This document shows positions 13,758-30,512 of a DNA stretch of 48,401 nucleotides, in pieces. Below the pieces are notes generated by a model. That model did not search any database. It had not been told where the DNA came from and saw nothing but the letters and a program-made list of their open reading frames with translations. Position 1 is the stretch's first letter. Each line of letters begins with the position of its first letter. Position numbers and translations under genes: made by a program. The stretch spans positions 1-48,401 of the forward strand of contig JAGWDQ010000082.1 of assembly GCA_018260615.1 (NCBI GenBank), written 5' to 3'. The stretch comes from Candidatus Altarchaeum sp. Its GTDB lineage: Archaea; Altiarchaeota; Altiarchaeia; Altiarchaeales; Altiarchaeaceae.

Positions 13758-13758
13758 A

Positions 13759-14013
13759 ATGCGTGATTTCACAATTAAAAAATACTGGAAACTATGCAAC
13801 ACAATAAAAGAAAATTATGGAACATTAACTTTTGAGGGTTATTTAACCAAATCCAAAAACAAATTTATTATTTTAAGGCATGATGTTGACAGAATGCCTG
13901 AGAATGCTTTAAAAATTGCAGAAATTGAGCATGAATCCGGCATTAAATCAACATACTATTTCAGAACAAACAAATCCGTCTTTAAACCGGAAATAATTAA
14001 AGGAATTGGTTAA
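13759..14013 (+). pseudogene. Deacetylase-like gene I, copy 4 (3' truncated at KGIG*)
   Basis: MRDFTIKKYWKLCNT...KPEIIKGIG*; same breakpoint and downstream ~70 bp as copy 1 (offset 7824). Confidence 0.9.
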
Positions 14014-14046
14014 ATAATTATTTATACTTTTCCTTTTAATTATTAA

Positions 14047-14080
14047 TACCTACATAAATTATACATAAAATCTGTAGGTA
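14047..14080. promoter_or_regulatory. Inverted repeat TACCTACA-N18-TGTAGGTA just upstream of the ATPase B start
   Basis: Ends 7 bp before ATG 14088; identical to 6223-6256. Confidence 0.45.
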
Positions 14081-14087
14081 AATTAAA

Positions 14088-15623
14088 ATGTTTGTTAACA
14101 GAAAAAGAGAGATGGAGTTTTTAGAGAGGGTGGGCAAGCAGTTTGAACGCGGTGTAAAGGTTCCAATTGCAATAATCGGATTGAGAAGAATTGGCAAAAC
14201 AGAATTGATTCAAAAATTTCGTGCGAATAAATCAGAAATTTTAATGCCGTATATGAATCTGGAAGGAACAACATCATCACCGGAAACTTATGCACAGGAT
14301 TTTTATTTAGCGTTTTTGAAGGAGATATTGAGAACTAAAAAAATGAGATTTGAAGCAGTTGGTTCAAAAAGGGAACAGATAATTGCAATTTCGTCAAAGC
14401 TTGGAGAAGGAATATACTTTAAGTCCCGGGGATTGATAAGTGCCGTTGATTCAAGAGACTATAATGAACTTTTGAAGGTTTGCTTTTCCCTCCCGGAAGA
14501 AATTGCAGAGGAATTAAAAACGAAAGTTATGTTTTTTGTTGATGAGTTCCAGGAATTTGATGACTTAAACAATTATCGCTTTGGTGATGTTTTTAAGATA
14601 ATGCGTTCTGTTGTTGAGAAACAGAAGAATGTGCTTTATGTAATATCTGGTTCTGTTATCTCTTTCATGGAGCGTGTTGTTGGCGATCCGGCAAAACCGT
14701 TCTTTAATCAATTCAGGATACTAAAATTAAGATATTTTACAAAAGAGGACTCGATAAAACTGGTAAAATGTCTGTTAAAAGGGGTGGAAATTGATGAAAA
14801 GACCTCGCATGAAATATTTAAAAACACACTTGGACATCCATTCTACATAACCGCAATATGCGAAAGGATCGCTCTCGAATCCGCACTGGAAGTTGATGTG
14901 GATTTGGTCAGATACGCAACACTAAAGGAAATTTTAGATGTTAACGGAAAGATAAACATACTATTTAAATACATATTTGAAAATTCACTGCAAAAAGCAA
15001 ATAGAAAAGGGCATTTAAAGGAAATTTTGGTTTATTTGGCAGAAAATGAGGGAGCGACTCTAAGTGAAATTGCAAGATATTTAAATAAACCAAGCGGACA
15101 AGTGAGTAATTATCTTTCTTCGCTCTTACAGACCGACCTGATTTTTGGAAGCGAAAAAAAGTACTATTACAGGGACGCCATCTTTAAGTTCTGGATAGCA
15201 AAGACGCAACTTGGGAAAGATATTGGAATAAGCAGAGAGAAAAAAGCAACGGATGATTACATTTCAGAACTTGAAGAGAAGTATATGAGGGCATCAACAG
15301 AACTTGGAAGAGCAAAGGAATACGAATTTAAAGTCAAACTTGAAAAAGCACTTGGATTAAAACTTGATAATTACATAAGTGAAGACTGACAGATTGAATT
15401 TGATCTGATTGGAAAGAAAGGCAAAAGCATGCATATCATTGAGATTAAGTGGAGGAATAAAACAGTAGATTATGAAGATGTGCAGAACTTTCTAAATAAG
15501 GTTTCAAGATCCGGATTTAAAAATGCCAAACTATATTTTGTTTCAAAGACGGGATATACAAAAGAGGCAGAGGCGTTGATGAAAAAAGAAGACATAATTA
15601 TATTGGAAAATGACCGGGAGTGA
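14088..15623 (+). pseudogene. Archaeal AAA ATPase + wHTH + C-terminal PD-(D/E)XK (DUF234-like) nuclease, interrupted by one in-frame TGA at 15387-15389
   Basis: Walker A GLRRIGKT, Walker B FFVDEFQ. ORFs 14088-15389 and 15429-15623 are in the same frame; read-through gives ISED*QIEFDLIGKKGKSMHIIEIKW (E-x-D...E-x-K). Confidence 0.8.
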
Positions 15624-15665
15624 AATATATTCTAAAAACCTGACGATTAGGGTGACGATTATAAA

Positions 15666-16461
15666 ATGCGTGATTTCACAATTGAAAAATACTGGAAACT
15701 ATGCAACACAATAAAAGAAAATTATGGAACATTAACTTTTGAGGGTTATTTAACCAAATCCAAAAACAAATTTATTATTTTAAGGCATGATGTTGACAGA
15801 ATGCCTGAGAATGCTTTAAAAATTGCAGAAATTGAGCATGAATCCGGCATTAAATCAACATACTATTTCAGAACAAACAAATCCGTCTTTAAACCGGAAA
15901 TAATTAAAGGAATTGCTTCACTCGGACATGAAATTGGCTACCACTATGAATGTATGGATAAAGCCGCAGGAAATCCTGAGAAAGCAATAAAAATATTTGA
16001 GGACGAATTGAAGAAATTCAGAGAAATCTGTGATGTTAAAACAATCTGCATGCACGGCAATCCGTTAACAAAATACGATAACAGGGAATTAGGGAAAAAA
16101 TATGATTTTAAAAGAATACTCACACATACTGAAACCTTCGGTTTCAATCTTTAAAAAACTACAAGTTTTTTAAAAAGCCACAAAGATACAGGGTAACTCT
16201 GCTCTTTGTGTCTTCGTGTCTCTGTGTGATTTTCAAATTCCAAAGGATTTGAAAATATCCGAACGAAGTGAGGTTAAAATAATAAAACGAACTTTCCTGT
16301 ACGATAAAAAATTTGAAATTTTGGGTGAAGCATATCTTTCGCTGGGAAATGATATTGCTTACTTTTCAGATACGGGAAGAAACTGGGGAAATAAATATAA
16401 AGTTAAAGATTTTAATGTAAACCTAAATAGTAATACGAATAAAGATATAGAACATAATTAG
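15666..16461 (+). pseudogene. Deacetylase-like gene I, copy 5, split by the same ~190-bp insertion (about 16114-16305)
   Basis: ORFs 15666-16154 and 16216-16461; 3' part identical to copy 3. Confidence 0.9.
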
Positions 16462-16533
16462 TTGTTTATAAAATATGAATAAAAATTTTATTGCCGTAAC
16501 TGTGGATATTGAAGACTGGTATCATATTCCTTC
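15775..16533 (+). repeat. 759-bp direct repeat, copy B
   Basis: Matches 10026-10784. Confidence 0.9.
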
Positions 16534-17386
16534 GGTTACAGGTTCGCCGTTTTCAAAATTTAAGGATGTGGACGAATTTTTCAGCAAATGGGATAAAAGA
16601 TATGATTACCTGACTGAACCGACAAAAAGGGTCTTAAACATGCTTGATGAATTAAATATAAAGGCAACCTTTTTTGTTGTTGCAGATGTTGTCGAACATT
16701 ACCCCGGATTAGTCGAAGAAATAGCAGATAGGGGACATGAGATTGGATGTCATGGATTACATCACGCATGCAAGATACATCCAAAGACAAAGAAGCCATT
16801 AATGTCAACTGAGGAATTTGAAAAAAGAACACTGAAAGCAAGGAGAATACTTGAGAAAGCATCAGGCAAGGAAGTAATCGGATACAGATCACCAAATGCG
16901 TTCATTGGCGGCTGGATGCTTGATTCGCTGAAAAAATTGGGGTTTGAGTATGACTCCTCCGTGAGCAAAAATTCCCTTTACAATAAAACGGACTCCCAAC
17001 TTACCAATGTTACTACAGTACCATATCATCCAAAAAATGACTGTCTTGACGCTGAAATAAATGATCCGAAAAATAAGGGACTACAGGAGATTCCCTGGCC
17101 ATACTTTGATTTTATGGGATTTAAATTCCCAACTGCAGGCGGTCCAATGCTCAGGTTTTTAGGTTCGGGATACATTATGCTGGGATTAAAACAAAGTTTA
17201 AAAAGGAGCAGTACAGTTTTTTATTTTCATCCGATTGATATTTCAAATGAAAAATTCCCGAATATCGGTAAAGGAAGACCATTATATTGGATCATTAAAG
17301 GAGAAACCATTGAAAACAGAATTAAATATATATTAAAAAATACCAAAGCAAATTTTGGCTGTTGTAGTGAAATGCTGCAAATTTAA
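16475..17386 (+). CDS. Polysaccharide deacetylase II (NodB/CE4 with DUF3473-like C-terminus)
   Basis: TVDIEDWYH, KATFFVV, GHEIGCHG, GYRSPN, YDSS, FYFHPIDI. Confidence 0.9.
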   Translation: MNKNFIAVTVDIEDWYHIPSVTGSPFSKFKDVDEFFSKWDKRYDYLTEPTKRVLNMLDELNIKATFFVVADVVEHYPGLVEEIADRGHEIGCHGLHHACKIHPKTKKPLMSTEEFEKRTLKARRILEKASGKEVIGYRSPNAFIGGWMLDSLKKLGFEYDSSVSKNSLYNKTDSQLTNVTTVPYHPKNDCLDAEINDPKNKGLQEIPWPYFDFMGFKFPTAGGPMLRFLGSGYIMLGLKQSLKRSSTVFYFHPIDISNEKFPNIGKGRPLYWIIKGETIENRIKYILKNTKANFGCCSEMLQI

Positions 17387-17400
17387 ATATAAAATTTGAA

Positions 17401-18543
17401 ATGATAAATGTAAATATAATCGGAACAGGGAGAACAAAATTCGGGGTATTAGACAAAAATATTCCTGAATTAGCTTATGAAGCAATGTTAAAATCATTAG
17501 AAGACAGCACTCTTTCCATAACAGAAATTGACGCAATATATGTCGCGAATTTCTGTGCAGGCCCTTTTCAAAACCAATTACATTTAAACTCACTCATTTC
17601 AGGTCTTTTGCCAAAATCAGATATCCCCATAATACGAATAGAGACAGCATGTGCGTCAGGTAGTAGTGCTTTGTATCAGGCAATAATATCTTTAAACAAA
17701 TTTGAAAATATTATGGTTTTAGGTGTCGAAAAAATGACAGATACTGATAATTTGTCTGCTTCAAAGAATATTTCTGCAGCAGGGGACAAATTACTTGATC
17801 AGGATGAAGGGCTTTTATTCCCTGCAAATTATGCTTTAATTGCACAGCAGCATATGCTTACATACGGCACAACGCTTGATGATCTTGCTTTGGTTTCTCT
17901 TAAAAATCACAATAATGGGAACTTAAATGAACTTGCTCATTTTTATCATAAAAAAGTTGATATGGAGGTGATTAAAAATTCACCTGTTGTTTGCTCGCCC
18001 CTGCGGCTTTTTGACTGCAGTCCGGTAAGTGATGGTGCTGCTGCTGTAATTATATCAAGAAATAAAAAAACAGATAGAGACATAAAAATTGTGGCATCCA
18101 CAATGGCAACGGATACTATCTCTTTATGCCAGAGAAAAAATTTAACTTCGTTTAAGGCAGCAAAAATTGCGGCAAAAGAAGCTTACAAACAGGCAGATAT
18201 AAAACCTTCGGATATTGACATTGCAGAAGTTCATGACTGCTTTACTATATCTGAGTTGATTGCTATGGAAGATATTGGATTATGCAAAGAGGGTGAAAGT
18301 AAGTACATGATAAGAGAGAATAGGACAACCCTTCAGGGAGATATACCCATAAATACAGACGGCGGTTTAAAAGCGGATGGTCATCCGATAGGTGCAAGCG
18401 GACTTGCTCAGATTATAGAAGTAGTAACACAGTTGAGGGGAGAAGCGGGAAAAAGACAGGTTCAAGATGCGGAGATTGGTTTAACGCATAATATAGGAGG
18501 TATTGGTGGCACAGCGGTGATTCATATATTAAAAAGGGAGTAA
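17401..18543 (+). CDS. Thiolase, SCP2/archaeal type (acetyl-CoA acetyltransferase)
   Basis: Catalytic motifs ETACASG, EVHDCFT, GHPIGASG, THNIGG. Confidence 0.92.
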   Translation: MINVNIIGTGRTKFGVLDKNIPELAYEAMLKSLEDSTLSITEIDAIYVANFCAGPFQNQLHLNSLISGLLPKSDIPIIRIETACASGSSALYQAIISLNKFENIMVLGVEKMTDTDNLSASKNISAAGDKLLDQDEGLLFPANYALIAQQHMLTYGTTLDDLALVSLKNHNNGNLNELAHFYHKKVDMEVIKNSPVVCSPLRLFDCSPVSDGAAAVIISRNKKTDRDIKIVASTMATDTISLCQRKNLTSFKAAKIAAKEAYKQADIKPSDIDIAEVHDCFTISELIAMEDIGLCKEGESKYMIRENRTTLQGDIPINTDGGLKADGHPIGASGLAQIIEVVTQLRGEAGKRQVQDAEIGLTHNIGGIGGTAVIHILKRE

Positions 18544-18549
18544 AATAAA

Positions 18550-20148
18550 ATGTATCAAAAAACAGCACTGATTACTGGTGGAAATGACGGAATTGGTATA
18601 GCCGTTAGCAAGACACTTTTAGAGGGAGATTATAAAGTTATTATCATAGACAAAAATGTAAATAATGCTAATGAGATGGTCAAAGAGAATAAGAATATTT
18701 ATGTATTTCGCTGCGACATAACCAATGAAAAAGAAGTTACAGAAACATTTAAAAAAATCCGGGAAATTACAGATAACATAGATGTTTTAATCAACTCCGC
18801 AGGTATTGGCGCTTTTGGTGATTTCGATGAAATTGACATTAGTGTATTCAGAAAAGTTATGGATGTTAATTTTTTTGGAACTGTCCGTGTAATAAAAGAG
18901 TGCTTGCCTTCAATGATAAAAAACGAGAAGGGGCATATTATAAATATCTCCTCAATTTCCGGAAAGGTTGCACTTCCGGGCAGTTCTCCATACTGTTGCT
19001 CAAAATGGGCATTAGAAGGTTTTTCAGAATCCTTTAGAATAGAAGTAAATCACAAACATATCGGAGTTAGTGTGATTAACCCTGGAAATGTCAAAACAGA
19101 ATTTACTAAACATTCTCTTTTGTCAAAAGCAGCAAATAACAACCACCGTACATCAAAAGGTACTCCTGTGGATTTTGTGGTCAAAAAAGTCATGCAGGTT
19201 TTAGAAAAGCCAGCGCGAAATATTTACATCCCTTCAAAAATAGGATTGGGTGCGATTATTGATGCGATTTTTCCGTCAGTAATGGATCGTTTCTACTTCC
19301 ATTGTGCAAGAAAAACGAATGTGTGTTTAGACAATGCAAAAGTTGCGGTTGTAACTGGAGCGAGTTCAGGAATTGGAAACGCGGTGGCTTCTACTTTGTG
19401 TGCCAGAGGATTAACAGTAATCATGATCGCCAGAAACAAAGAAAAACTATTTAGTGCAGCAAAAGAGATATCTGCACTTGGGGGCAATCCTGTACCTTTT
19501 CCACTTGACATACGAGATTATGAAGCAGTAAAGCAGACAATTAAAAAGATCATAATGGATTTCGGACAGATAGATATACTTGTAAATAATGCAGGTTACT
19601 CTGTTAGTGGCAAAGTTGAGGATGTCCCTATTGAAAAATACATTTCAAATATGGAAACAAACTTTTTTGGAGGCATTCAAATCATTAAAGAGGTTTTGCC
19701 ATATATGAAACAAGAAAATAATGGACACATAATTAATGTACTCTCCACGAATGCAATAAGAGGGATTCCTAATCTGAGTTCGTATGGTGCAACAAAATTT
19801 GCTTTACGAGCATTCTCTCGATGCCTGGATAGAGAACTGGCAAGAAAAAATATTAACATCAAGGTTTCTGAAGTATTTCCTGCAAGTGTAGAAACTCCTT
19901 TTTTTGTTGAAAATGCTGATACTGTCAGTGGTGCGAGTACTTCCCCTATGCTTAAATTCAATAGAAATCTTTTATCTGCTGAAGAAGTAGCAAAAGAGAT
20001 TATTGTGTTGCTTGAAACTGGAAAAACAAGGAAATTTCTCCCATTGAAGAGCTATTTTCTGTTTGTTGGAAACACTATTTCACCATCACTTGTTGATTTA
20101 TTTTTCCTGAATCGTAAAAAATTAACCCAAACTAAAAATGGTTTTTAA
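18550..20148 (+). CDS. Tandem two-domain short-chain dehydrogenase/reductase
   Basis: Two complete SDR units: TGGNDGIG/INSAG/YCCSK and TGASSGIG/VNNAG/YGATK. Confidence 0.9.
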   Translation: MYQKTALITGGNDGIGIAVSKTLLEGDYKVIIIDKNVNNANEMVKENKNIYVFRCDITNEKEVTETFKKIREITDNIDVLINSAGIGAFGDFDEIDISVFRKVMDVNFFGTVRVIKECLPSMIKNEKGHIINISSISGKVALPGSSPYCCSKWALEGFSESFRIEVNHKHIGVSVINPGNVKTEFTKHSLLSKAANNNHRTSKGTPVDFVVKKVMQVLEKPARNIYIPSKIGLGAIIDAIFPSVMDRFYFHCARKTNVCLDNAKVAVVTGASSGIGNAVASTLCARGLTVIMIARNKEKLFSAAKEISALGGNPVPFPLDIRDYEAVKQTIKKIIMDFGQIDILVNNAGYSVSGKVEDVPIEKYISNMETNFFGGIQIIKEVLPYMKQENNGHIINVLSTNAIRGIPNLSSYGATKFALRAFSRCLDRELARKNINIKVSEVFPASVETPFFVENADTVSGASTSPMLKFNRNLLSAEEVAKEIIVLLETGKTRKFLPLKSYFLFVGNTISPSLVDLFFLNRKKLTQTKNGF

Positions 20149-21247
20149 ATGTGAAAAATGTAATCTGGCGTGGTATTATCCGGTTAAAAAATGTATTTAC
20201 TGTAAAGGAGTGGTTAAAGAATTAAAAGAAGAAAAATATAGAGTTAGAGGAATAACTGAAGTTTTTGTTCCATCTAAAGATCATTCTCAAGTGCCTTATT
20301 ATGATCTCCTTTTAGAAGATGAAAATGATAATTTGCATATCAAGAAATCATTTAAGAAGTATGAAATTGGAGATGTCATACTTACAGATAATAAAAAGAA
20401 AGAGGAACACATTAAAGAGAAAATTGGAGTTATAGGTACTGGTGTCACAGGAACCGGAATTGCTCAGGTTCTTGTTTCTGCCGGATTTGAAGTAATTTTA
20501 AAAAGTAGAACTCAAGAATCATTAGATAGTGCGATTCAGAAAATAGAGAGAGAACTGTTAAGAACAATGAGTGTTTCTGAAAAAAATAAAATTATTAAAA
20601 ATATTAAGCCAACGACTAATTTAGATGATTTGATAAATGCAGATATAATAATAGAATCAGTTACCGAAAATATAAATGTAAAAAAGCAGTTATTTAAGGA
20701 ATTGGATGAAATCCTGCCTGATAAAGCAATAATTGCAACAAATACTTCTTCTCTCTCAATTGATGAATTAGCATCTGCTACTGCAAGACCGGACAGATTT
20801 ATCGGGATGCATTTCTTTAATCCGGTACCTAAAATGTATTTACTTGAAATCGTTCGTGGAGAAAAAACATCCGATACGATAATTGACAAAATAACTAAAC
20901 TTGCAAAACAAATTAATAAAACACCAATAATTACAAAAAACAGCCCGTGTTTCATAGTCAACCGAATATTGGCAGCTTACCTGAATGAGGCAATATGGGA
21001 ACTTTACGAAGGAGTTGCATCAGCAGAGGATATTGATACTGCATCAAAACTCGGACTTAATCATCCAATGGGACCTCTTGCATTGGTAGATTTAATTAGT
21101 CTTGATATAGTCCTTGCCATCCTGAAAAGTTTGCATCAAAGAACCGGAGACAAAAAGTATTTGCCCTGCCCGCTCATAGAAGAAAAAGTTAAAGAAGGTA
21201 AATTAGGCAGAAAAACAAAGGAGGGGTTTTACAAATACATTACTTAA
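20138..21247 (+). CDS. Fusion: DUF35-like Zn-ribbon/OB-fold + 3-hydroxyacyl(butyryl)-CoA dehydrogenase
   Basis: N-terminal CEKC...CIYC followed by an OB-like segment (VPYYDLLLEDE); then GVIGTGVTGTGIAQ, ESVTE, ATNTSSL, HFFNPV, FIVNRIL, GLNHPMGPL. Confidence 0.85.
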   Translation: MVFKCEKCNLAWYYPVKKCIYCKGVVKELKEEKYRVRGITEVFVPSKDHSQVPYYDLLLEDENDNLHIKKSFKKYEIGDVILTDNKKKEEHIKEKIGVIGTGVTGTGIAQVLVSAGFEVILKSRTQESLDSAIQKIERELLRTMSVSEKNKIIKNIKPTTNLDDLINADIIIESVTENINVKKQLFKELDEILPDKAIIATNTSSLSIDELASATARPDRFIGMHFFNPVPKMYLLEIVRGEKTSDTIIDKITKLAKQINKTPIITKNSPCFIVNRILAAYLNEAIWELYEGVASAEDIDTASKLGLNHPMGPLALVDLISLDIVLAILKSLHQRTGDKKYLPCPLIEEKVKEGKLGRKTKEGFYKYIT

Positions 21248-21286
21248 AATAAATGTAAATTTAATTACTTAAATGGCGATTACAAA

Positions 21287-21805
21287 ATGTCTAAAAGAGA
21301 TAAAATAGCTTTTGAAGAAGCAGTTGCATGTTCAAATTCAAGTAACAAATTCACATATGCAATTAAATTTTTAAAGAATTGGCTTTTGGAACGCATTGCA
21401 TCCTCTTTTCCAATACCTTCATGGAGAACAAAATTACATAAAATGAGGGGTATAAAAATCGGAAAAGACGTTTACATAGGTTATGATGTGATATTTGACA
21501 GGATACATCCTGAACTGATAACAATTGAGGATTATGTTGAGATAGGCGACAGATGTATAATAAGCGCGCATTCAAGAGGTACATCACTTTTAAGGGAATT
21601 TTATCCGAGAACAACAGCGCCAGTGGTTATCAAAAAAGGAGTGTGGATCGCTCCGGGATGCATAATATTGCAGGGTGTGAGTATTGGGGAGTGTGCTGTT
21701 ATAGGTACTGGGGCAGTTGTTACTAAAGATGTTCCTTCGTGGAGTGTTGCAGTGGGAGTACCTGCAAACGTTATCAAAACCTTAAAAAATAATTTACGAT
21801 TATAA
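21287..21805 (+). CDS. Hexapeptide-repeat (left-handed beta-helix) acyltransferase
   Basis: IGKDVYIG; VVIKKGVWIAPGCIILQGVSIGECAVIGTGAVVTKDVP...GVPA. Confidence 0.9.
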   Translation: MSKRDKIAFEEAVACSNSSNKFTYAIKFLKNWLLERIASSFPIPSWRTKLHKMRGIKIGKDVYIGYDVIFDRIHPELITIEDYVEIGDRCIISAHSRGTSLLREFYPRTTAPVVIKKGVWIAPGCIILQGVSIGECAVIGTGAVVTKDVPSWSVAVGVPANVIKTLKNNLRL

Positions 21806-21811
21806 AAAAAG

Positions 21812-22966
21812 ATGAGCAATCAAAAAGTATGTACAAGATGTGTCATGGACACATCGGATCCTGATATTCAATTTGATGAAGATGGAGTATGCAATCATTG
21901 TAGAAAATATGAAAAAATAATGCATTGTAGAGTTTATTCTGATGAAGAAAAGCAGCAAAAACTTAAACATCTTGCAAATAAAATCAAAGAAGAAGGAAAA
22001 AATAAGGAATATGATTGTATTATAGGAGTTAGTGGAGGGGTTGATAGCACCATGGTCGCGTACACAGTTAAAAAAAAGTTGGGTTTGAGGCCGTTAGCAA
22101 TTCATTTAGATAATGGGTGGGACTCAGAGTTGTCAATAAAGAATATAGAAAAAATATGCAAGGTGCTTGATATTGATTTATTTACTCATGTGCTTGATTG
22201 GGAAGAATTTAAGAATATACAATTATCCTTCTTAAAATCATCTTTTATAAATGCTGAGATGCCAACAGATCATGCTATAATGGCGGTTCTTTTCCAGGTT
22301 GCTGATGAAAAAAGAATCCCTTACATCATTAACGGGTCTAATTTCACGACAGAAGGCATATTGCCTAATAGTTGGGTTTATGATGTTAGAGACTGGAAAT
22401 TTATTGAAGGGATCCATAGAAAGTTTGGTAAACTGAAATTAAAAACATTTCCTCATTATGGTTTAATAGATATGTTTTATTATCTTTTTATAAAAAGCAC
22501 AAAATTCGTTACAATTTTAGATTACATTGACTATAACAAAAAAGATGCAATGAAACTTATAGAAAAAGAACTAGGGTGGAAATATTATAGCGGGAAACAT
22601 TATGAATCAATATTTACTCGTTTTTACCAGGGATATATTCTTCCAAAGAAATTTAAAATAGATAAAAGAATAGCCCATTTATCTACGCTAATTTGTTCGG
22701 GTCAGATAACAAGAGAGGAAGCATTGGAAGAGTTAAAAAAAGATCCATATCCTTCCGAAGAAATGATGAAAGAGGACAAAGAGTATGTTATAAAAAAATT
22801 AGGGCTTACTGAAGAAGAGTTCGAAAAAATAATGTCGCTGCCAATTAAGACATTTGAAAGTTACCCTAATAATAGTTTTTTATTCAATAAATTAAAACTG
22901 CCACTTAGGATAGCATATAAATTTGGCTTGGTTCCTCCCATTGTATACTTTAGATATTGTGTTTGA
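21812..22966 (+). CDS. N-acetyl sugar amidotransferase (WbpG/WbuX/AglX-like)
   Basis: CTRCVMD...CNHC; PP-loop YDCIIGVSGGVDS; HLDNGW; GKHYES. Confidence 0.9.
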   Translation: MSNQKVCTRCVMDTSDPDIQFDEDGVCNHCRKYEKIMHCRVYSDEEKQQKLKHLANKIKEEGKNKEYDCIIGVSGGVDSTMVAYTVKKKLGLRPLAIHLDNGWDSELSIKNIEKICKVLDIDLFTHVLDWEEFKNIQLSFLKSSFINAEMPTDHAIMAVLFQVADEKRIPYIINGSNFTTEGILPNSWVYDVRDWKFIEGIHRKFGKLKLKTFPHYGLIDMFYYLFIKSTKFVTILDYIDYNKKDAMKLIEKELGWKYYSGKHYESIFTRFYQGYILPKKFKIDKRIAHLSTLICSGQITREEALEELKKDPYPSEEMMKEDKEYVIKKLGLTEEEFEKIMSLPIKTFESYPNNSFLFNKLKLPLRIAYKFGLVPPIVYFRYCV

Positions 22967-23013
22967 GTTAATACATATAAACCCATAAAACAAACAAATA
23001 AACAAAAACGATT

Positions 23014-23631
23014 ATGCTCACTATTATTGATTACGGAATGGGAAATGTAGGTTCAATTAAGAACATGCTAAAAAAAGCAGGATATAATTCAGTTATTACC
23101 TCGCAGATCTCTGAAATAAAAAATGCGACAAAGCTCATTTTACCGGGAGTTGGGTCATTTGATAATGGTATTAAACAGTTATTTAATTTAAATTTAACAG
23201 ATGTCTTAAATGAAAAGATATTAAATGAAAAAACCCCGGTCATGGGAATATGTCTTGGAATGCAGTTAATGACAAAAAACAGCGAGGAAGGAAAATTGTC
23301 AGGATTGGGATGGCTAAATGCAAAAACAATAAGATTTAATTTTAATCAGGATTATTCATTAAAAATTCCGCACATGGGATGGAATTCGGTGAAAATTGAA
23401 AAGAAAAGTAAAATCTTTCAGGACATGTATGACGGGGAAAACAGATTTTATTTTGTTCATTCGTATCATGTTCTTTGCGATAATCAGGAAGATATATTAA
23501 CAAGTACATTTTATGGTTATAACTTTACATCCGGTTTTGAAAGAGATAATATTATCGGAGTACAGTTTCACCCGGAAAAAAGTCATAAATTCGGTATGCA
23601 ACTTTTAAAAAGTTTCGCAAAGAATTTTTAA
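23014..23631 (+). CDS. HisH-like glutamine amidotransferase (glycan-modification paralogue, WbuY/AglY-like)
   Basis: IDYGMGNVGS, LPGVGSFD, GICLGMQ, FYFVHSY, QFHPEKS; located in a glycan operon. Confidence 0.9.
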   Translation: MLTIIDYGMGNVGSIKNMLKKAGYNSVITSQISEIKNATKLILPGVGSFDNGIKQLFNLNLTDVLNEKILNEKTPVMGICLGMQLMTKNSEEGKLSGLGWLNAKTIRFNFNQDYSLKIPHMGWNSVKIEKKSKIFQDMYDGENRFYFVHSYHVLCDNQEDILTSTFYGYNFTSGFERDNIIGVQFHPEKSHKFGMQLLKSFAKNF

Positions 23632-23644
23632 ATAATATATCAGA

Positions 23645-24415
23645 ATGTTAAATACAAGAGTAATACCGGTTTTACTACTAAGAAACAGAGGATTGGTAAA
23701 GACAGTTGAATTCAAAGAAGGAAAATATATAGGAGATCCGATAAACGCAGTTAAAATATTTAATGAAAAAGAGGTGGATGAGTTGATATTCCTTGATATT
23801 ACAGCAAGTAAAGAACAGAGAGAGCCCAATTTTGATTTAATTTATGATATTGCAACAGAGTGTTTCATGCCTTTTGGATACGGTGGTGGAATCAAAACAA
23901 TACAACACATAAAAAAACTCTTTTCATCGGGTGCAGAAAAAGCAGTTATAAACAGCTGTGCAATAGAAAATCCATCTTTCATCAAGGAGGCATCGGATTT
24001 TTTTGGCTCACAAAGTATTGTTGTTTCCATAGATGTTAAAAAGAGTTTAACGGGAAAATATAAAGTTTATGATAGCAGTAAAGATAAATTAACAGATTTA
24101 GACCCAGTGGATTTTTGCATTAAAATGGAATCATTGGGGTGCGGAGAAATTTTTTTAAATTCCGTCGAAAGAGATGGAATTATGAAAGGATATGATATAG
24201 AATTAATAGAAAAAGTAGCAAACGCAGTAAATATTCCAGTAATTGCCTGTGGGGGTGCAGGTAAACTTGAGGATTTCAGAGATGCTGTAAAACAAGGAAA
24301 TGCTTCAGCGGTTGCAGCAGGCAGTTTGTTTGTTTTTTACGGAAAACACAAAGCCGTCCTGATTAATTATCCTTCACAGGAAGAATTAGAAAAAATATTA
24401 GATCAAAAAAGATAA
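23645..24415 (+). CDS. HisF-like TIM barrel (WbuZ/AglZ-like)
   Basis: RVIPVLL, GDPINAVKIFNEKEVDELIFLDI, GYGGGI, ERDGIMKGYD, GGAG. Confidence 0.9.
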   Translation: MLNTRVIPVLLLRNRGLVKTVEFKEGKYIGDPINAVKIFNEKEVDELIFLDITASKEQREPNFDLIYDIATECFMPFGYGGGIKTIQHIKKLFSSGAEKAVINSCAIENPSFIKEASDFFGSQSIVVSIDVKKSLTGKYKVYDSSKDKLTDLDPVDFCIKMESLGCGEIFLNSVERDGIMKGYDIELIEKVANAVNIPVIACGGAGKLEDFRDAVKQGNASAVAAGSLFVFYGKHKAVLINYPSQEELEKILDQKR

Positions 24416-24420
24416 CAAAA

Positions 24421-25491
24421 ATGAAAATTTTAGTTGATATCGGACACCCGGCACATGTGCATTTATTCAAGAACTTTATATGGAACATGGAGAAAAAAGG
24501 ACATGAAATCTTGATAACTGCAAAAGATAAAGATGTTACGATTGAATTACTTGATAACTACGGATTTAAATACGAAATAGTTGGAAAATATGGAAAAAGT
24601 ACATTATCAAAAATTAAAGATATGATAAGCATAGATTATAAGATGTATAAAATTGCTAAAAAATTTAGACCTGATATTTTAACGGGGGTGTCGGCGGTTA
24701 ATGCAGCTCATGTGTCAGCATTATTAAGGAAGCCGTGTGTTGTTTTTGATGACACCGAGCATTCATCATTGGAACATAAATTATACGTTCCATTTGCAAG
24801 TGCAATTTGTACTCCATCCTGTTTCAAAAAAGATTTAGGAAAAAAGCAGATTCGTTTCAATGGCTTCAAAGAACTCGCATACTTGCATCCGAATTATTTT
24901 AAACCAAATTCCGCTATTTTGGATGAATTAAATTTAAGTAAGGATGATAAATTTATAATTGTAAGATTTATTTCATGGCAAGCAACACATGACATTGGAT
25001 ATAAAGGAATGAATTTGGAATCAAAAATTAGATTAGTTAAAGAAATGGAGAAATATGGAAAGGTCTTTATAACATCTGAATCTAAATTAGAAAAGGACTT
25101 TGAAAAATATAGAATTACAATTTCACCTGAAAAATTACATGATTTGCTTTATTATGCGACATTGTATATTGGCGAAGGGGGAACTACTTCAACAGAAGCG
25201 GCAATTCTTGGAACTCCCTCAATACTCATTGATTCCCAGGCAAAGTTTTGTGGAGTGCATAATGAACTGATGAATACATACGGCTTGCAGTTATATTATG
25301 ACTCTGACAAAAAAGAGGATGCCTTTAAGAAAGCAATTGAAATATTAGAAAATAAAAATTCAAAAAAGGACTGGCAAATAAAGAGAGAAAAAATGCTTAA
25401 AGACAAGATTGATGTAACAAAATTTATGGTTGACTTTATTGAGAATTATCCGGAAGGTCTTTATGAATATAAATGTAATTATTTAAAATAA
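24421..25491 (+). CDS. DUF354 family protein (GT-B-like fold)
   Basis: MKILVDIGHPAHVHLFKN, DDTEH, KELAYLHPNYFKP, EGGTTSTEAAILGTP. Confidence 0.85.
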   Translation: MKILVDIGHPAHVHLFKNFIWNMEKKGHEILITAKDKDVTIELLDNYGFKYEIVGKYGKSTLSKIKDMISIDYKMYKIAKKFRPDILTGVSAVNAAHVSALLRKPCVVFDDTEHSSLEHKLYVPFASAICTPSCFKKDLGKKQIRFNGFKELAYLHPNYFKPNSAILDELNLSKDDKFIIVRFISWQATHDIGYKGMNLESKIRLVKEMEKYGKVFITSESKLEKDFEKYRITISPEKLHDLLYYATLYIGEGGTTSTEAAILGTPSILIDSQAKFCGVHNELMNTYGLQLYYDSDKKEDAFKKAIEILENKNSKKDWQIKREKMLKDKIDVTKFMVDFIENYPEGLYEYKCNYLK

Positions 25492-26272: not shown

Positions 26273-26911
26273 ATGATATCCTTAAATAGAGTAATGGTTT
26301 TAAGCCCGCACACCGATGATGGGGAAATCGGGGCCGGAGGTACAATAGCACGACTAATTGAAGAAGGAAAGGATGTTTATTATGTTGCATTTTCAAGTTG
26401 TGAGGAATCATTGCACAAGGGATTAAAAGATGACACTTTGAAAAAGGAATGTATTGAAGCAACTGGTCTTTTGGGAATTCCAAAGAAAAATGTCATTTTA
26501 CTTGATTATAAAGTCAGATATTTTTATCAGCACAGGCAGGAAATTCTGGATGAAATAATAAGACATAATAAAGAAATTTCACCCGATGTTGTTTTTGTTC
26601 CATCATTTTATGATACACATCAGGATCATCAGGTTATCTATAATGAATCATTGAGGGCATTTAAAAAAAGTGCTTCCATATTGGGATATGAGCATCCATG
26701 GAATAATCTATCCTTTACAACACACATATATTTTAAATTGGAGGAAAGACATATACAAAAAAAGATAAATGCTTTAAAATGTTATAAATCGCAGGACTTT
26801 CGGTCATATTTTGATGAAAAATATATAAAGGCGTCTGCTTATGCCAAGGGAGTTGAAGTAAATTTTCCTTATACCGAGACATACGAATTAATAAGATTAC
26901 TCATAAAATAA
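26273..26911 (+). CDS. PIG-L/LmbE family deacetylase
   Basis: LSPHTDDGEIGAGGTI, DTHQDHQ, YKSQ. Confidence 0.9.
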   Translation: MISLNRVMVLSPHTDDGEIGAGGTIARLIEEGKDVYYVAFSSCEESLHKGLKDDTLKKECIEATGLLGIPKKNVILLDYKVRYFYQHRQEILDEIIRHNKEISPDVVFVPSFYDTHQDHQVIYNESLRAFKKSASILGYEHPWNNLSFTTHIYFKLEERHIQKKINALKCYKSQDFRSYFDEKYIKASAYAKGVEVNFPYTETYELIRLLIK

Positions 26912-29450: not shown

Positions 29451-30512
29451 TTGAAAATGGATGTTGATATAAAAAAATTAAAACAAAATAAAGAAATGTG
29501 GGATATATTTACAAGAAAAGAGGAATATAACTCAAAACATTTAGACCATTTTGAGATCCATAATTTGAAGAAAGGTAAATATATAACAAAACCAATCGTT
29601 TCAAAATTTTTAATTGAAAATAATTTAAAAATAAATTATCTGGAAAACAAAAAGTTTGCCGTATGTTTAACACATGATGTTGATGACATTTACCCTCCAT
29701 TACACCACACACTACTCTCATCACTTTATTGCATTAAAAATCTAAATTTTAAACAATTAAAAAAACAACTTTTCTGGAAGAATAGCGGAAAAGAATATAG
29801 TCCTTATAGAAATTTCAAAGAAATAATAGATTTAGAAGAAAAATACAGCGCAAAATCATCATTTTATTTTATGGCAACCAACAAGGATATAAAAAGATTT
29901 AGATATCATATTGAAGATTTAGAAAACGATTTGGGCTTTATTTGGGATAATGACTGCGAGATTGGGTTACATGGAGGGTATTATGCATATAATAATTTAG
30001 GGGAAATAAAAAAAGAAAAAGAGAGAATAGAAAAAGTTTTAGGTAAATCAGTTATTGGTTATAGGAATCATTACTTGATGTTCAAAATTCCAGATACATG
30101 GGAATTATTAGAAAAATGCGGATTCAAATACGATACGACAATGGGGTATAATTATGGCGTTGGTTTTAGAAATGGGATGTGTCATCCCTTTAAACCATTT
30201 AATTTGAATAGCAATAAGGAGATTGACATTTTAGAGATTCCCATGATTATTATGGACAGTGCTTTATTTAATGTTTCAATTTCAATTGAACAAACATGGG
30301 AAACTGTAAAGAACATCATAAACACGGTAGAAAAATGTAACGGTGTTTTGACTTTATCCTGGCACAGTGAAGTATTTAACTGGCCTTTTAGAGAAAACTG
30401 GAAGATACTATACGAGAAAATTTTAAAGTATTGTTATGAAAAGAATGCTTGGATGACAAGCGGAGAAGAAATCTATAGGTGGTGGAATAAAAATGAAGAA
30501 TCAAAAAACTAA
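29451..30512 (+). CDS. Polysaccharide deacetylase family protein
   Basis: LTHDVDD, EIGLHG, GYRNHYL, YDTTMG, GFRNG, LSWH. Confidence 0.85.
   Translation: MKMDVDIKKLKQNKEMWDIFTRKEEYNSKHLDHFEIHNLKKGKYITKPIVSKFLIENNLKINYLENKKFAVCLTHDVDDIYPPLHHTLLSSLYCIKNLNFKQLKKQLFWKNSGKEYSPYRNFKEIIDLEEKYSAKSSFYFMATNKDIKRFRYHIEDLENDLGFIWDNDCEIGLHGGYYAYNNLGEIKKEKERIEKVLGKSVIGYRNHYLMFKIPDTWELLEKCGFKYDTTMGYNYGVGFRNGMCHPFKPFNLNSNKEIDILEIPMIIMDSALFNVSISIEQTWETVKNIINTVEKCNGVLTLSWHSEVFNWPFRENWKILYEKILKYCYEKNAWMTSGEEIYRWWNKNEESKN

What the first reader, a model, noticed from the sequence alone, without database searches (positions are those of the whole stretch)
17401..21805. Self-contained acyl-CoA supply module (thiolase, double SDR, DUF35-HBD, acyltransferase) inside a glycan operon
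Seen: four tightly coupled genes (gaps 6, -11 and 39 bp) between a polysaccharide deacetylase and the sugar amidotransferase trio, all with intact catalytic motifs. Established: thiolase makes acetoacetyl-CoA from 2 acetyl-CoA; 3-hydroxyacyl-CoA dehydrogenases and some SDRs reduce it to (S)- or (R)-3-hydroxybutyryl-CoA; N-(3-hydroxybutyryl) groups occur on bacterial O-antigen and nonulosonate sugars; hexapeptide enzymes transfer acyl-CoA to sugars. Inference: a dedicated pathway that makes a hydroxyacyl-CoA and installs it on an archaeal surface glycan, perhaps by deacetylate-then-reacylate editing. I do not know of such a module being described.
Basis: partly seen in the sequence, partly recalled or inferred. 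Interest (0 to 1): 0.8.

Follow-up and report, generated by a model that had tools for sequence, protein, structure and literature searches.

The report
Hydroxybutyryl-CoA supply cassette in glycan operon
Inside a surface-sugar operon of an uncultivated groundwater archaeon sits a small, horizontally spread gene cassette that most likely makes its own 3-hydroxybutyryl-CoA on a thiolase with a tethered reductase and uses it, not acetyl, to decorate a sugar; this is untested by experiment and I found no paper describing it.

Summary
The four genes, their spacing and their flanks are as described. The thiolase (17401-18543) is a second copy, apart from the scattered housekeeping thiolase, DUF35 and HMG-CoA synthase. 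The 3-hydroxybutyryl-CoA dehydrogenase (20138-21247) carries a 92-residue N-terminal 4-Cys zinc-ribbon/OB domain. Pfam misses this domain, but it folds like DUF35, and a model with controls docks it on the thiolase (0.90 against 0.00).

I compared 13 lineages in Archaea and Bacteria:
- Thiolase plus fused dehydrogenase are always adjacent.
- 8 lie in clear glycan loci, 9 have an acyltransferase within two genes, and 8 have a de-N-acetylase-family gene within two genes.
- The anammox lineage uses the pair outside glycan loci.

The genome shows no dehydratase or beta-oxidation genes, so 3-hydroxybutyryl-CoA looks like an end product.

Two points are weaker:
- The double SDR is an ORF-sized indel, absent from most cassettes and also found in a glycan locus without the pair. 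Its role is open.
- The acyltransferase resembles O-acetyltransferases more than sugar N-acyltransferases, so N- versus O-acylation is unresolved.

This scan has found the same cassette before on other DNA. I rate it a new variant of known thiolase/DUF35 scaffolds.

The parts
16475..17386 (+). CE4 polysaccharide de-acetylase (Polysacc_deac_1 + DUF3473). It has no signal peptide or membrane helix at its start, so it is probably cytoplasmic.
   Evidence: Pfam PF01522 at 3e-20 and PF11959. The sequence starts directly with the CE4 motif. Nearest solved structure is H. pylori PgdA, 3qbu. A CE4 or PIG-L gene lies within two genes of the cassette in 8 of 13 lineages.
17401..18543 (+). Dedicated SCP-x/archaeal-type acetoacetyl-CoA thiolase, the genome's second copy.
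   Evidence: NF004720 scores 453 against 420; the M. thermolithotrophicus equivalog scores 413, below its cut-off of 600. Best solved structures are 7yvy and 6esq_A, E 5e-82. It is 47-48% identical to the genome's other thiolase but 59-89% to cassette thiolases. C84, HDCF and GHP are invariant.
18550..20148 (+). Tandem double SDR (two classical SDR domains). An accessory gene; substrate unknown.
   Evidence: It is a clean ORF-sized indel relative to L007. It is present in the 98% relative L053, lies divergently beside the cassette in L054, and sits in a glycan locus without the cassette in L056.
20138..20413 (+). N-terminal 92-residue truncated DUF35-like domain (4-Cys zinc ribbon + OB fold), followed by a flexible K/E-rich linker (residues 85-92).
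   Evidence: C5, C8, C19 and C22 are invariant. AF2 pLDDT is 82. The top 18 Foldseek hits are all DUF35 chains (6ok1_D E 2.4e-3, TM 0.58). VIA-align gives Z 6.1-5.4 to the same set over residues 1-91. Atlas feature hits are zf-ChsH2 clusters at 0.90. The complex model with the thiolase scores 0.90 against 0.00. Linker pLDDT is below 50.
20414..21247 (+). 3-hydroxybutyryl-CoA dehydrogenase domain (3HCDH family; the (S)-specific class).
   Evidence: PF02737 at 3e-59 and PF00725 at 3e-33. Best solved structures are the Clostridium Hbd entries 4r1n and 4kue, E 6e-75. It is the only true 3HCDH in the genome. The end of beta-2 reads Ser-Arg where Clostridium Hbd has Asp.
21287..21805 (+). Small hexapeptide-repeat (left-handed beta-helix) acyltransferase, the candidate hydroxybutyryl transferase.
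   Evidence: PF00132. A coherent subfamily (38-86% identity, invariant H95) travels with the cassette in L007, L014, L015, L016 and L054. Nearest solved relatives are LacA/Maa/SACOL2570 O-acetyltransferases at about 1e-14, and sugar N-acetyltransferases at about 1e-9.
21812..24415 (+). WbuX / HisH / AglZ-HisF2 sugar amidotransferase trio (acetamidino formation). Context, not part of the cassette.
   Evidence: NCBIfam TIGR03573, TIGR01855 and NF038364, all above cut-off.
24421..25491 (+). DUF354 protein (GT-B-like), a recurrent neighbour of the cassette.
   Evidence: PF04007. Also lies next to the cassette in L007, L014 and L015.
26273..26911 (+). PIG-L family de-N-acetylase, the second candidate amine-generating enzyme of the operon.
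   Evidence: PF02585 at 1e-19. A PIG-L gene directly precedes the thiolase in L009.
29451..30512 (+). Protein with no Pfam family. A lead only: it resembles clusters automatically named 'polysaccharide deacetylase family'.
   Evidence: No Pfam hit. Atlas features score 0.98-0.96 to such clusters. Homologous stretches lie beside the cassette in L015 and L017.

Best explanation
The conserved core is a cassette of a thiolase, a DUF35-like::3-hydroxybutyryl-CoA dehydrogenase fusion and an acyltransferase. A de-acetylase often accompanies it.

Proposed mechanism:
1. The thiolase condenses two acetyl-CoA to acetoacetyl-CoA, an unfavourable reaction.
2. The dehydrogenase is held on the thiolase by its N-terminal zinc-ribbon/OB domain through a flexible linker of about 8 residues. 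It reduces the product at once to (S)-3-hydroxybutyryl-CoA and so pulls the condensation. It probably uses NADPH.
3. No dehydratase or beta-oxidation enzyme was found in the assembly, so 3-hydroxybutyryl-CoA is an end product.
4. The co-travelling hexapeptide acyltransferase transfers it to a sugar of the surface glycan made by this operon.
5. In this window the acceptor amine, if the link is an amide, would come from the cytoplasmic CE4 (or PIG-L) de-acetylase, because the operon has no sugar aminotransferase.

Shown here: gene content, conserved catalytic residues, DUF35-like fold, synteny across 13 lineages, patchy distribution.
Supported by a model only: docking of the domain on the thiolase.
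Inferred: reaction direction, stereochemistry, cofactor, donor use by the acyltransferase, N- versus O-linkage, and the acceptor sugar.

The double SDR is an accessory whose substrate I cannot assign.
For: Genes, spacing and family assignments.

The thiolase is an extra copy:
- It is a second paralogue, 47-48% identical to the genome's other thiolase. The housekeeping thiolase, a canonical DUF35 and HMG-CoA synthase lie on other contigs.
- The window's dehydrogenase is the genome's only true 3HCDH.

The N-domain is DUF35-like:
- Four cysteines are invariant.
- The AF2 model has pLDDT 82.
- The top 18 Foldseek hits are all thiolase-partner DUF35 chains: 6ok1, 5m3k, 7pxp, 6esq, 6htj, 3irb, 9vbt. 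VIA-align gives Z 5.4-6.1 over residues 1-91.
- Atlas feature and structure hits agree.

Docking model:
- ipSAE is 0.90 in all three runs; the best of three controls is 0.00.
- The runs agree in at least 98% of contacts, and the partner's pLDDT is at least 86.
- That mark was reached by 58 of 80 solved complexes and 2 of 110 mismatched pairs.
- Similar complexes are already solved, so the pass may reflect likeness only.
- Interface residues of the domain are somewhat more conserved than the rest (0.76 against 0.63). The two thiolase paralogues are 30% identical at the interface against 47% overall.

The full-length model has two confident domains joined by a linker of pLDDT below 50.

Synteny:
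- The thiolase lies directly upstream of the fusion in every full-length relative that has upstream sequence.
- A hexapeptide or GNAT/FemAB acyltransferase lies within two genes in 9 of 13 lineages.
- A CE4 or PIG-L gene lies within two genes in 8 of 13.
- 8 of 13 are clear glycan loci, including one beside AglB/STT3 and one with PIG-L plus an LpxD-like acyltransferase.

No onward pathway: crotonase, MaoC, FabA/Z and acyl-CoA dehydrogenase were not found in the 87.5%-complete genome.

Distribution and direction:
- The domain was not found in 40 related genomes, while cassette thiolases of Bacteria and Archaea intermix. That fits an accessory, transferred glycan-variation module.
- Ser-Arg replaces the NAD-specifying Asp in 20 of 22 family members, which fits a reductive, biosynthetic direction.

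Precedent for DUF35-mediated channelling from thiolases: bioRxiv 10.1101/2024.07.05.601840, PMC12960953, PMC2954200.
Against: - There is no biochemical or glycan-structure evidence at all.
- The acyltransferase is closest to LacA/Maa/WcaF-type O-acetyltransferases and passes no NCBIfam cut-off. It could simply use acetyl-CoA, or it could O-acylate.
- CE4 enzymes usually act on polymers outside the cell. A cytoplasmic role is inferred only from the lack of a signal sequence.
- In anammox Planctomycetota the same gene pair lies in a housekeeping context, followed by an HMG-CoA-reductase-like gene. The pair is therefore not intrinsically tied to glycans.
- The same N-domain fused to DUF362 sits in what looks like a lipid cluster in CPR bacteria.
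- The domain fails the Pfam DUF35 models. Fold-match scores are modest (E about 2e-3, Z about 6).
- The double SDR sits between thiolase and dehydrogenase and is unexplained.
- The genome is incomplete, so absences are provisional.
- The lineages were found by homology to the fusion and are not fully independent.
Confidence: 0.6

Rival explanations
1. The logic is the same (in-locus acyl donor for glycan acylation) but the product differs. One option: the double SDR is an (R)-specific acetoacetyl-CoA reductase, so this lineage installs (R)-3-hydroxybutyryl, or both enantiomers. Another option: the thiolase accepts a longer or branched primer, so the group is a C5-C6 3-hydroxyacyl.
For: The C-terminal SDR half is most similar to ketoacyl reductases, (3R)-hydroxyacyl-CoA dehydrogenase (2et6) and 3-hydroxybutyrate dehydrogenases. 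The gene is wedged exactly between thiolase and dehydrogenase, and it again neighbours the cassette in L054. Both D- and L-3-hydroxybutyryl amides are known on bacterial glycans (my own knowledge; a D-form example is cited in PMC3628348).
Against: The double SDR is absent from most cassettes. It also occurs in a glycan locus with no thiolase or dehydrogenase, which points to a sugar or other substrate. Its NCBIfam hits are generic SDR models. Nothing in the data points to a longer primer.
Confidence: 0.15
2. The thiolase/dehydrogenase pair is not coupled to the acyltransferase. The acyltransferase is an ordinary acetyl-CoA-dependent O-acetyltransferase. The pair either runs in the catabolic direction (3-hydroxybutyrate or acetoacetate to acetyl-CoA, feeding acetylation) or supplies some other pathway.
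For: The acyltransferase's best solved relatives are O-acetyltransferases. Anammox genomes use the pair without any glycan gene. Thiolase and Hbd reactions are reversible (established).
Against: Adjacency of the pair to acyltransferases recurs in 9 of 13 lineages, across hexapeptide, LpxD-like and GNAT/FemAB types. That is hard to explain without a shared substrate. The window holds no CoA-transferase or ligase to activate free 3-hydroxybutyrate. Ser-Arg at the cofactor site suggests NADPH and a reductive direction. The tether makes most sense for pulling the unfavourable condensation.
Confidence: 0.12
3. The block is a piece of an ACP-independent fatty-acid, lipid or storage pathway. That would be either a Sulfolobus-type thiolase/DUF35/ketoacyl-CoA reductase synthase or oligo/poly-hydroxybutyrate synthesis, lying in the glycan operon only by chance.
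For: Thiolase + DUF35 + SDR-type reductase is the front end of the S. acidocaldarius complex (bioRxiv 10.1101/2024.07.05.601840). The sister form of the domain (DUF362 fusion) lies in a cluster with FabG-, FabA- and FabK-like genes and a PlsC-type acyltransferase in a Nealsonbacteria genome.
Against: No MaoC, FabA/Z or crotonase dehydratase and no acyl-CoA dehydrogenase was found in this genome. No enoyl reductase or PHA synthase gene is in the window. The glycan context is conserved across lineages.
Confidence: 0.04

Closest known systems
Archaeal acetoacetyl-CoA thiolase / HMG-CoA synthase / DUF35 complex (Methanothermococcus thermolithotrophicus, PDB 6esq/6et9)
   Same: The thiolase is of the same type (6esq_A, E 5e-82). 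A zinc-ribbon/OB DUF35 module is predicted to sit on the thiolase. The logic is the same: pull the unfavourable condensation by coupling it to the next enzyme (as summarised in bioRxiv 10.1101/2024.07.05.601840).
   Different: The downstream enzyme is a 3HCDH-family reductase, not HMG-CoA synthase. The DUF35-like module is covalently fused to that enzyme, is shortened (no N-terminal extension) and falls below the Pfam models. The genomic setting is a glycan operon, not the mevalonate pathway. The genome keeps a separate housekeeping set.
Sulfolobus acidocaldarius fatty-acid synthase complex (KT Saci_1121 / DUF35 Saci_1120 / SDR reductase Saci_1104 / MaoC dehydratase; bioRxiv 10.1101/2024.07.05.601840)
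   Same: A thiolase/DUF35 pair recruits the ketoacyl-CoA reductase so that the product is channelled. It is ACP-independent, CoA-based chemistry.
   Different: There the DUF35 is a free protein and the reductase is an (R)-type SDR. Here the tethered reductase is an Hbd-type enzyme. No dehydratase or enoyl reductase was found here, so the chain stops at C4-OH.
ChsH1-ChsH2(DUF35)-Ltp2 and Shy(DUF35)-Sal steroid side-chain aldolase complexes (PDB 6ok1, 9myr; PMC12329534)
   Same: This is a precedent for a DUF35 domain covalently fused to a partner enzyme and docking onto an SCP-x thiolase-fold protein. 6ok1_D is the best structural match of the N-domain.
   Different: In those complexes the DUF35 sits at the C-terminus of a MaoC hydratase, and the thiolase-fold partner is a retro-aldolase in catabolism. 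Here the domain is N-terminal, the partner is a dehydrogenase, and the thiolase keeps Cys84 and the HDCF and GHP motifs.
Clostridial Thl-Hbd and PHB PhaA-PhaB routes from acetyl-CoA to 3-hydroxybutyryl-CoA
   Same: The two reactions are the same. The dehydrogenase domain is closest to Clostridium Hbd (4r1n/4kue, E 6e-75).
   Different: Those enzymes are free-standing, use a different (type II) thiolase, and feed fermentation or storage. Here the reductase is tethered, the thiolase is SCP-x type, there are no onward enzymes, and the locus is a glycan locus.
Bacterial N-(3-hydroxybutyryl) amino-sugar modules, e.g. Acinetobacter baumannii QhbA/QhbB (WeeI/WeeJ) for UDP-QuiNAc4NHb (PMC3628348)
   Same: An acyltransferase encoded in the locus is predicted to put 3-hydroxybutyryl instead of acetyl on an amino sugar of a surface polysaccharide.
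   Different: Those loci, as described in that paper, encode an aminotransferase plus an acyltransferase but no dedicated thiolase/reductase supply. The window has no aminotransferase and instead has de-acetylases. Its acyltransferase belongs to a different hexapeptide subfamily.
LpxC/LpxD step of lipid A synthesis (de-N-acetylate, then N-acylate with a 3-hydroxyacyl group); my own knowledge
   Same: The editing logic matches the one proposed here. One relative (L009) even pairs a PIG-L de-acetylase with an LpxD-domain acyltransferase directly around the thiolase/fusion pair.
   Different: LpxD uses long-chain (R)-3-hydroxyacyl-ACP. Here the donor would be a C4 CoA ester. The window's acyltransferase is not LpxD-like.

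Membership tests
DUF35 (Pfam zf-ChsH2 PF12172 + OB_ChsH2_C PF01796) | Match to the Pfam models above their cut-offs | tested here: not met
   Residues 1-101 give no PF12172 or PF01796 hit even at E <= 1. The genome's free-standing DUF35 passes both models. A profile of the domain against PDB sequences gives only 6htj at E 0.23. hhalign to the own DUF35 gives probability 4.7%. A profile search of 1.84 billion representatives returns only 130 proteins, not the large canonical family.
DUF35 (Pfam zf-ChsH2 PF12172 + OB_ChsH2_C PF01796) | Four-cysteine rubredoxin-like zinc ribbon followed by an OB fold | tested here: met
   C5, C8, C19 and C22 are invariant in 22 sequences. The predicted fold (pLDDT 82) matches DUF35 chains over residues 1-91 in Foldseek (top 18 hits) and in VIA-align (Z 5.4-6.1). 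Atlas hits are zf-ChsH2 clusters.
DUF35 (Pfam zf-ChsH2 PF12172 + OB_ChsH2_C PF01796) | N-terminal extension ahead of the zinc ribbon, as in solved DUF35 proteins | tested here: not met
   The domain starts at residue 1 with the ribbon. Aligned ranges in the solved chains begin at residues 16-45, or at 208 in ChsH2.
DUF35 (Pfam zf-ChsH2 PF12172 + OB_ChsH2_C PF01796) | Binds an SCP-x-type thiolase-fold partner | tested here: inconclusive
   The complex model scores 0.90 against a best control of 0.00, with at least 98% contact agreement and partner pLDDT at least 86. This supports binding but does not show it. Similar complexes are solved, so the pass may reflect likeness.
3-hydroxyacyl-CoA dehydrogenase family (3HCDH; Hbd/HAD) | N-terminal NAD(P)-binding and C-terminal domains above Pfam cut-offs, with the catalytic His-Glu pair and Ser/Asn | tested here: met
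   PF02737 scores 200 bits and PF00725 scores 115 bits. S204, H225, E237 and N275 are invariant. It aligns end to end with Clostridium Hbd. It falls below the NCBIfam Hbd cut-offs (346 against 408), so it is a divergent subfamily.
Archaeal-type (SCP-x-like) acetoacetyl-CoA thiolase | Family model above cut-off, with the nucleophilic Cys and the HDCF and GHP motifs | tested here: met
   NF004720 scores 453 against 420. C84, H278-D-C280-F and G-H328-P are invariant. The mevalonate-pathway equivalog NF053570 is not met (413 against 600), which fits a paralogue with another role.
Sugar N-acyltransferases of the NeuD/PglD/WlbB/QdtC class | Match to TIGR03570 above cut-off, or closest similarity to solved members | tested here: not met
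   TIGR03570 scores 48.6 against 160.8. WlbB, QdtC and PerB match at only about 1e-9 to 1e-8, behind O-acetyltransferases.
LacA/Maa/WcaF-type hexapeptide O-acetyltransferases | Family model above cut-off; catalytic His in the loop after the third coil | tested here: inconclusive
   The best solved relatives belong to this class (3ftt, 3srt, 1kqa; 1e-14 to 1e-12), and H95 is invariant. However, every NCBIfam model is far below its cut-off (WcaF family 65 against 192), and an N-acetyltransferase (DapH, 3cj8) scores equally well.
Sulfolobus-type archaeal fatty-acid synthase | Thiolase/DUF35 plus SDR reductase plus MaoC dehydratase plus enoyl-CoA reductase | tested here: not met
   MaoC, FabA/Z and crotonase were not found in the 87.5%-complete genome. 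The enoyl reductase was not searched for.
WbuX/WbuY/WbuZ sugar amidotransferase trio (context of the finding) | All three NCBIfam models above cut-off, in adjacent genes | tested here: met
   TIGR03573 scores 300.6 against 203.2, TIGR01855 scores 232.8 against 105.4, and NF038364 scores 380.7 against 310.

The most novel reading that the evidence does not exclude
The cassette is a minimal, self-driving two-enzyme channelling machine: a thiolase with a covalently tethered reductase, held by a stripped-down DUF35 dock. It has spread horizontally between Archaea (Altiarchaeota, Micrarchaeota and others) and Bacteria as a plug-in that edits surface glycans. Together with a cytoplasmic de-N-acetylase and a dedicated acyltransferase it swaps N-acetyl for N-(S)-3-hydroxybutyryl. 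This would be a lipid-A-like 'deacetylate then reacylate' step applied to archaeal glycans. The same dock, fused to other enzymes (DUF362), would serve ACP-free lipid synthesis in CPR bacteria.
Probability: 0.3. Interest if true: 0.7.

Novelty: new variant of a known kind. Interest (0 to 1): 0.55.

Why it matters
If correct, four things follow:
- It shows a new way in which the thiolase/DUF35 scaffold principle is used, so far known for mevalonate, archaeal fatty acids, steroid side chains and Friedel-Crafts acylases. Here the dock is fused to the next enzyme, and the product is a donor for glycan decoration.
- It predicts a chemical feature, a hydroxybutyryl group, on the surface of an uncultivated groundwater archaeon that forms biofilms. 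This can be tested by mass spectrometry.
- It gives annotators a rule: a thiolase plus a dehydrogenase of about 365 residues with an N-terminal CxxC...CxxC, sitting in a sugar locus, is not 'fatty-acid degradation'.
- The two-enzyme unit is a compact, possibly NADPH-driven route to (S)-3-hydroxybutyryl-CoA that may be useful in pathway engineering.

Tried and rejected
- Pfam on the N-terminal 101 residues gave only chance-level hits (DUF1287, OB_RNR_2nd).
- A profile against PDB sequences and hhalign against the genome's own DUF35 were too weak to use alone.
- PF08540 as a probe for archaeal HMG-CoA synthase is uninformative, because the control misses M. jannaschii. I replaced it with NF003274.
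- The sigma-70 promoter and terminator scan of 15500-25600 did not differ meaningfully from shuffles and does not apply to an archaeon.
- The word-indexed search restricted to residues 1-92 found only the dehydrogenase fusions, 29 proteins. The exhaustive profile search and the genome scan were needed to see the DUF362 fusions.
- The careful maximum-likelihood tree did not finish. Only the quick tree with a single outgroup is available, so I make no claim about monophyly or the direction of transfer.
- Literature searches for a thiolase/dehydrogenase supply in glycan loci, or for hydroxybutyryl groups on archaeal glycans, found nothing relevant. The library is limited, so this is not proof that the module is undescribed. 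The PNAS paper on the 6esq complex is not held.
- I considered the double SDR as a core member of the module and rejected that.
- I considered PHB or fatty-acid synthesis and rated it unlikely.

Full report
**1. What is in the sequence**

The four ORFs are exactly as reported: 17401-18543 (380 aa), 18550-20148 (532 aa), 20138-21247 (369 aa) and 21287-21805 (172 aa), with gaps of 6, -11 and 39 bp. Pfam and NCBIfam identify them as follows:
- An SCP-x/archaeal-type thiolase (NF004720, 453 bits against a cut-off of 420).
- A tandem double SDR.
- A 3HCDH-family 3-hydroxybutyryl-CoA dehydrogenase whose catalytic part begins at residue 95.
- A hexapeptide-repeat acyltransferase.

Upstream lies a CE4 de-acetylase with a DUF3473 tail (16475-17386). 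Downstream lies the WbuX/HisH/AglZ-HisF2 amidotransferase trio, with all three models above cut-off. The same strand continues to about 43387 with DUF354, a nucleotidyltransferase/HEPN pair, PIG-L, WbqC, AsnB, ATP-grasp, PHP, a methyltransferase, four GT4 and one GT2 glycosyltransferases, UDP-GlcNAc 2-epimerase, a 4,6-dehydratase-like enzyme and a sugar nucleotidyltransferase.

**2. The N-terminal domain of the dehydrogenase**

Residues 1-92 have no Pfam match. About twenty homologues of roughly 365 residues (52-98% identity) share the domain, with four invariant cysteines (CxxC...CxxC) and a conserved stretch after them.
- An AlphaFold model of the domain (pLDDT 82) matches thiolase-partner DUF35 proteins only, in its first 18 Foldseek hits: ChsH2 6ok1, PhlB 5m3k, BbsA 7pxp, the M. 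thermolithotrophicus DUF35 6esq, Trf 6htj, SSO2064 3irb and MucB 9vbt. The best is E 2.4e-3 with TM 0.58.
- A Foldseek-independent search ranks the same set first, at Z 6.1-5.4 over residues 1-91. These scores are modest, but the matches cover the whole domain and all come from one family.
- The ESM Atlas points the same way.

The domain begins directly with the ribbon, so it lacks the N-terminal extension of solved DUF35 proteins. A profile search of 1.84 billion representatives finds only 130 proteins, always with the domain at the N-terminus, and does not reach canonical DUF35. I therefore call it a truncated, divergent DUF35-like dock, not a Pfam DUF35 member. In the full-length model it is joined to the dehydrogenase by an eight-residue K/E-rich linker of low confidence.

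**3. Does it dock on the thiolase?**

A complex model of the thiolase alignment with the domain alignment scored 0.90 in three runs, against 0.00 for the best of three controls. The runs agreed in at least 98% of contacts, and the partner's pLDDT was at least 86. This mark was reached by 58 of 80 solved complexes and by 2 of 110 mismatched pairs. The model supports binding but does not show it. Thiolase/DUF35 complexes are solved, so the pass may come from likeness.

The predicted interface uses the conserved stretch of the domain (residues 37-50 and 65-70). Conservation there is 0.76 against 0.63 elsewhere. The window's thiolase and the genome's other thiolase are 30% identical at the interface against 47% overall. 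That is weakly consistent with each thiolase having its own partner.

**4. A dedicated copy with no onward pathway**

The genome (2.2 Mb, 87.5% complete) has a second thiolase next to gyrA, a canonical free DUF35 and an HMG-CoA synthase on three other contigs. That is the housekeeping mevalonate set.

The window's dehydrogenase is the only true 3HCDH in the genome. Crotonase, MaoC, FabA/Z dehydratases and acyl-CoA dehydrogenase were not found. Within the limits of an incomplete assembly, 3-hydroxybutyryl-CoA would be a dead end unless it is used as an acyl donor.

The dehydrogenase domain is closest to Clostridium Hbd (E 6e-75). That class makes the (S) enantiomer (established knowledge). At the end of strand beta-2 it has Ser-Arg where Hbd has the NAD-specifying Asp, and 20 of 22 family members do the same. 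From that I infer a preference for NADPH and hence a reductive direction.

**5.

I combined look-ups of homologues with a scan of 185,579 species genomes using the domain profile. I annotated the loci by tblastn and Pfam. This gave 13 lineages with the full fusion:

| # | Lineage (loci) |
|---|---|
| 1 | This window and its 98% and 80% relatives (L053, L007) |
| 2 | L009 |
| 3 | L011 |
| 4 | L013 |
| 5 | L014 |
| 6 | L015 |
| 7 | A Cloacimonadota MAG (L016) |
| 8 | An Altiarchaeota MAG (L017) |
| 9 | Desulfocapsa (L023) |
| 10 | Micrarchaeota (L030/L052) |
| 11 | L054 |
| 12 | Nitrospirota (L026/L028/L051) |
| 13 | Anammox Planctomycetota (L018/L050, L019, L020) |

Findings across these lineages:
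- In every one the thiolase lies immediately upstream of the fusion.
- Eight lie among glycosyltransferases, flippases, Wzy, sugar-nucleotide enzymes or the AglB oligosaccharyltransferase (lineages 1-5, 9-11).
- Three show the cassette with acyltransferases only, on short or unannotated flanks (6-8).
- One lies beside MBOAT, SGNH and epimerase genes (12).
- The anammox lineage is in a housekeeping context and is followed by an HMG-CoA-reductase-like gene (13).
- An acyltransferase lies within two genes in 9 of 13. It is a small hexapeptide type as here, LpxD-like in L009, and GNAT/FemAB-like in L011 and L017.
- A CE4 or PIG-L gene lies within two genes in 8 of 13.

The small acyltransferase forms its own subfamily that travels with the cassette (38-86% identity, invariant His95).

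The domain was not found in 40 related genomes (3 of the same genus, 37 of the same class). Meanwhile the window's thiolase is 59-89% identical to cassette thiolases from both domains of life. The cassette therefore behaves as an accessory, transferred module. The lineages were found through homology to one protein and are not fully independent, and no matched random control was run.

**6.

(a) The double SDR.
- Against the 80% relative it is a clean indel of exactly one ORF between the thiolase stop and the dehydrogenase start.
- It is present in the 98% relative.
- It is absent from the other cassettes except L054, where a 62% homologue sits divergently next to the CE4 gene.
- A 42% homologue lies in a glycan locus with a CE4-DUF3473 gene but no thiolase or dehydrogenase.
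- Its two halves are generic classical SDRs. The second half is nearest to ketoacyl reductases and 3-hydroxybutyrate dehydrogenases.

It is therefore a glycan-locus accessory of unknown substrate. It could be an (R)-specific acetoacetyl-CoA reductase, or it could just as well act on a keto-sugar.

(b) The acyltransferase. It is closest to LacA/Maa/WcaF-type O-acetyltransferases (about 1e-14), ahead of sugar N-acetyltransferases (about 1e-9). It passes no NCBIfam cut-off. The choice between N- and O-acylation, and the donor itself, remain open.

In favour of the 'deacetylate then reacylate' idea:
- The CE4 protein has no signal sequence.
- The operon encodes no sugar aminotransferase.
- L009 shows a PIG-L/LpxD-like pair around the same two genes.

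**7. Comparison with what is known**

DUF35 proteins are known scaffolds between SCP-x-type thiolases and a following enzyme:
- HMG-CoA synthase in methanogens.
- The SDR reductase and MaoC dehydratase in the S. acidocaldarius fatty-acid synthase (bioRxiv 10.1101/2024.07.05.601840).
- Friedel-Crafts acylases (PMC12960953).
- Steroid aldolases, where DUF35 is fused to a hydratase (6ok1; PMC12329534).

In-locus acyltransferases predicted to add N-3-hydroxybutyryl to amino sugars are known in Acinetobacter (PMC3628348), without a dedicated donor supply. What is different here is the fusion of a shortened dock to an Hbd-type reductase, and its use as a private acyl-donor source inside glycan loci. 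I found no paper on this in the library, which is limited.

The scan itself has reported the same cassette on other genomes several times. Those notes agree with this reading but are not independent evidence. Earlier notes name the genome Candidatus Altiarchaeum; I did not verify that.

**8. Verdict**

- Best explanation (confidence 0.6): a tethered thiolase-reductase pair makes (S)-3-hydroxybutyryl-CoA, which the co-travelling acyltransferase puts on a sugar of this operon's glycan.
- Novelty: a new variant of a known kind.
- Interest: 0.55. The case is coherent, testable and undescribed in the literature I could search. It extends known principles and rests entirely on sequence, models and synteny.

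Noticed in passing
L042:3341-13572 (Nealsonbacteria complete genome CP179887.1); also L024, L027, L029, L031-L036, L038-L049: The same truncated DUF35-like domain is fused to DUF362 (PF04015) instead of the dehydrogenase. This occurs in CPR/Patescibacteria, Saccharibacteria, Woesearchaeota and Methanosarcinales MAGs. In L042 it sits with an SCP-x thiolase, a FabG-like SDR, a FabA-like+FabK-like fusion, a second FabK-like gene, a PlsC-type acyltransferase, a FakA/DegV fusion and a CarS-like gene. This looks like an ACP-independent, thiolase-based lipid cluster in bacteria that are said to lack fatty-acid synthesis.
   Followed up: partly
L050:8863-12680; L020:6860-10480; L019: In anammox Planctomycetota (Anammoxibacter, Scalindua) the thiolase/fused-dehydrogenase pair is followed by a 453-aa HMG-CoA-reductase-like gene. 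The context is housekeeping, with no glycan genes. This is a different, unexplained use of the pair.
   Followed up: partly
window 25501-26264: A nucleotidyltransferase/HEPN pair (toxin-antitoxin-like) is inserted between DUF354 and PIG-L inside the glycan operon. It is present in the 98% relative L053 and absent from the 80% relative L007.
   Followed up: no
L007:11670-12823: In the 80% relative the WbuX amidotransferase gene is split into 317-aa and 66-aa ORFs, a probable frameshift. Its AsnB gene is also split near its end.
   Followed up: no
window 29451-30512; L015:6220-7815; L017:4210-5706: A protein with no Pfam family recurs next to the cassette in three lineages. By Atlas features (0.96-0.98) it resembles clusters automatically named 'polysaccharide deacetylase family'. 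It may be a third de-acetylase type linked to the cassette.
   Followed up: partly
L015:100-945: One relative carries a second, unfused 281-aa 3-hydroxyacyl-CoA dehydrogenase and a second hexapeptide acyltransferase just upstream of the thiolase/fusion pair.
   Followed up: no
L051:3130-8732: In Nitrospirota the pair lies next to an MBOAT protein and an SGNH/GDSL protein. That is the gene pair typical of polymer O-acylation systems, and it hints at O-hydroxybutyrylation there.
   Followed up: no
window 5300-16470: The region upstream of the operon is a repetitive array of AlbA_2/HATPase_c_4, archaeal ATPase_2 and PIN genes with short unannotated ORFs between them. Other first-reader notes describe it as a cassette array with dead de-acetylase copies. 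I did not examine it.
   Followed up: no
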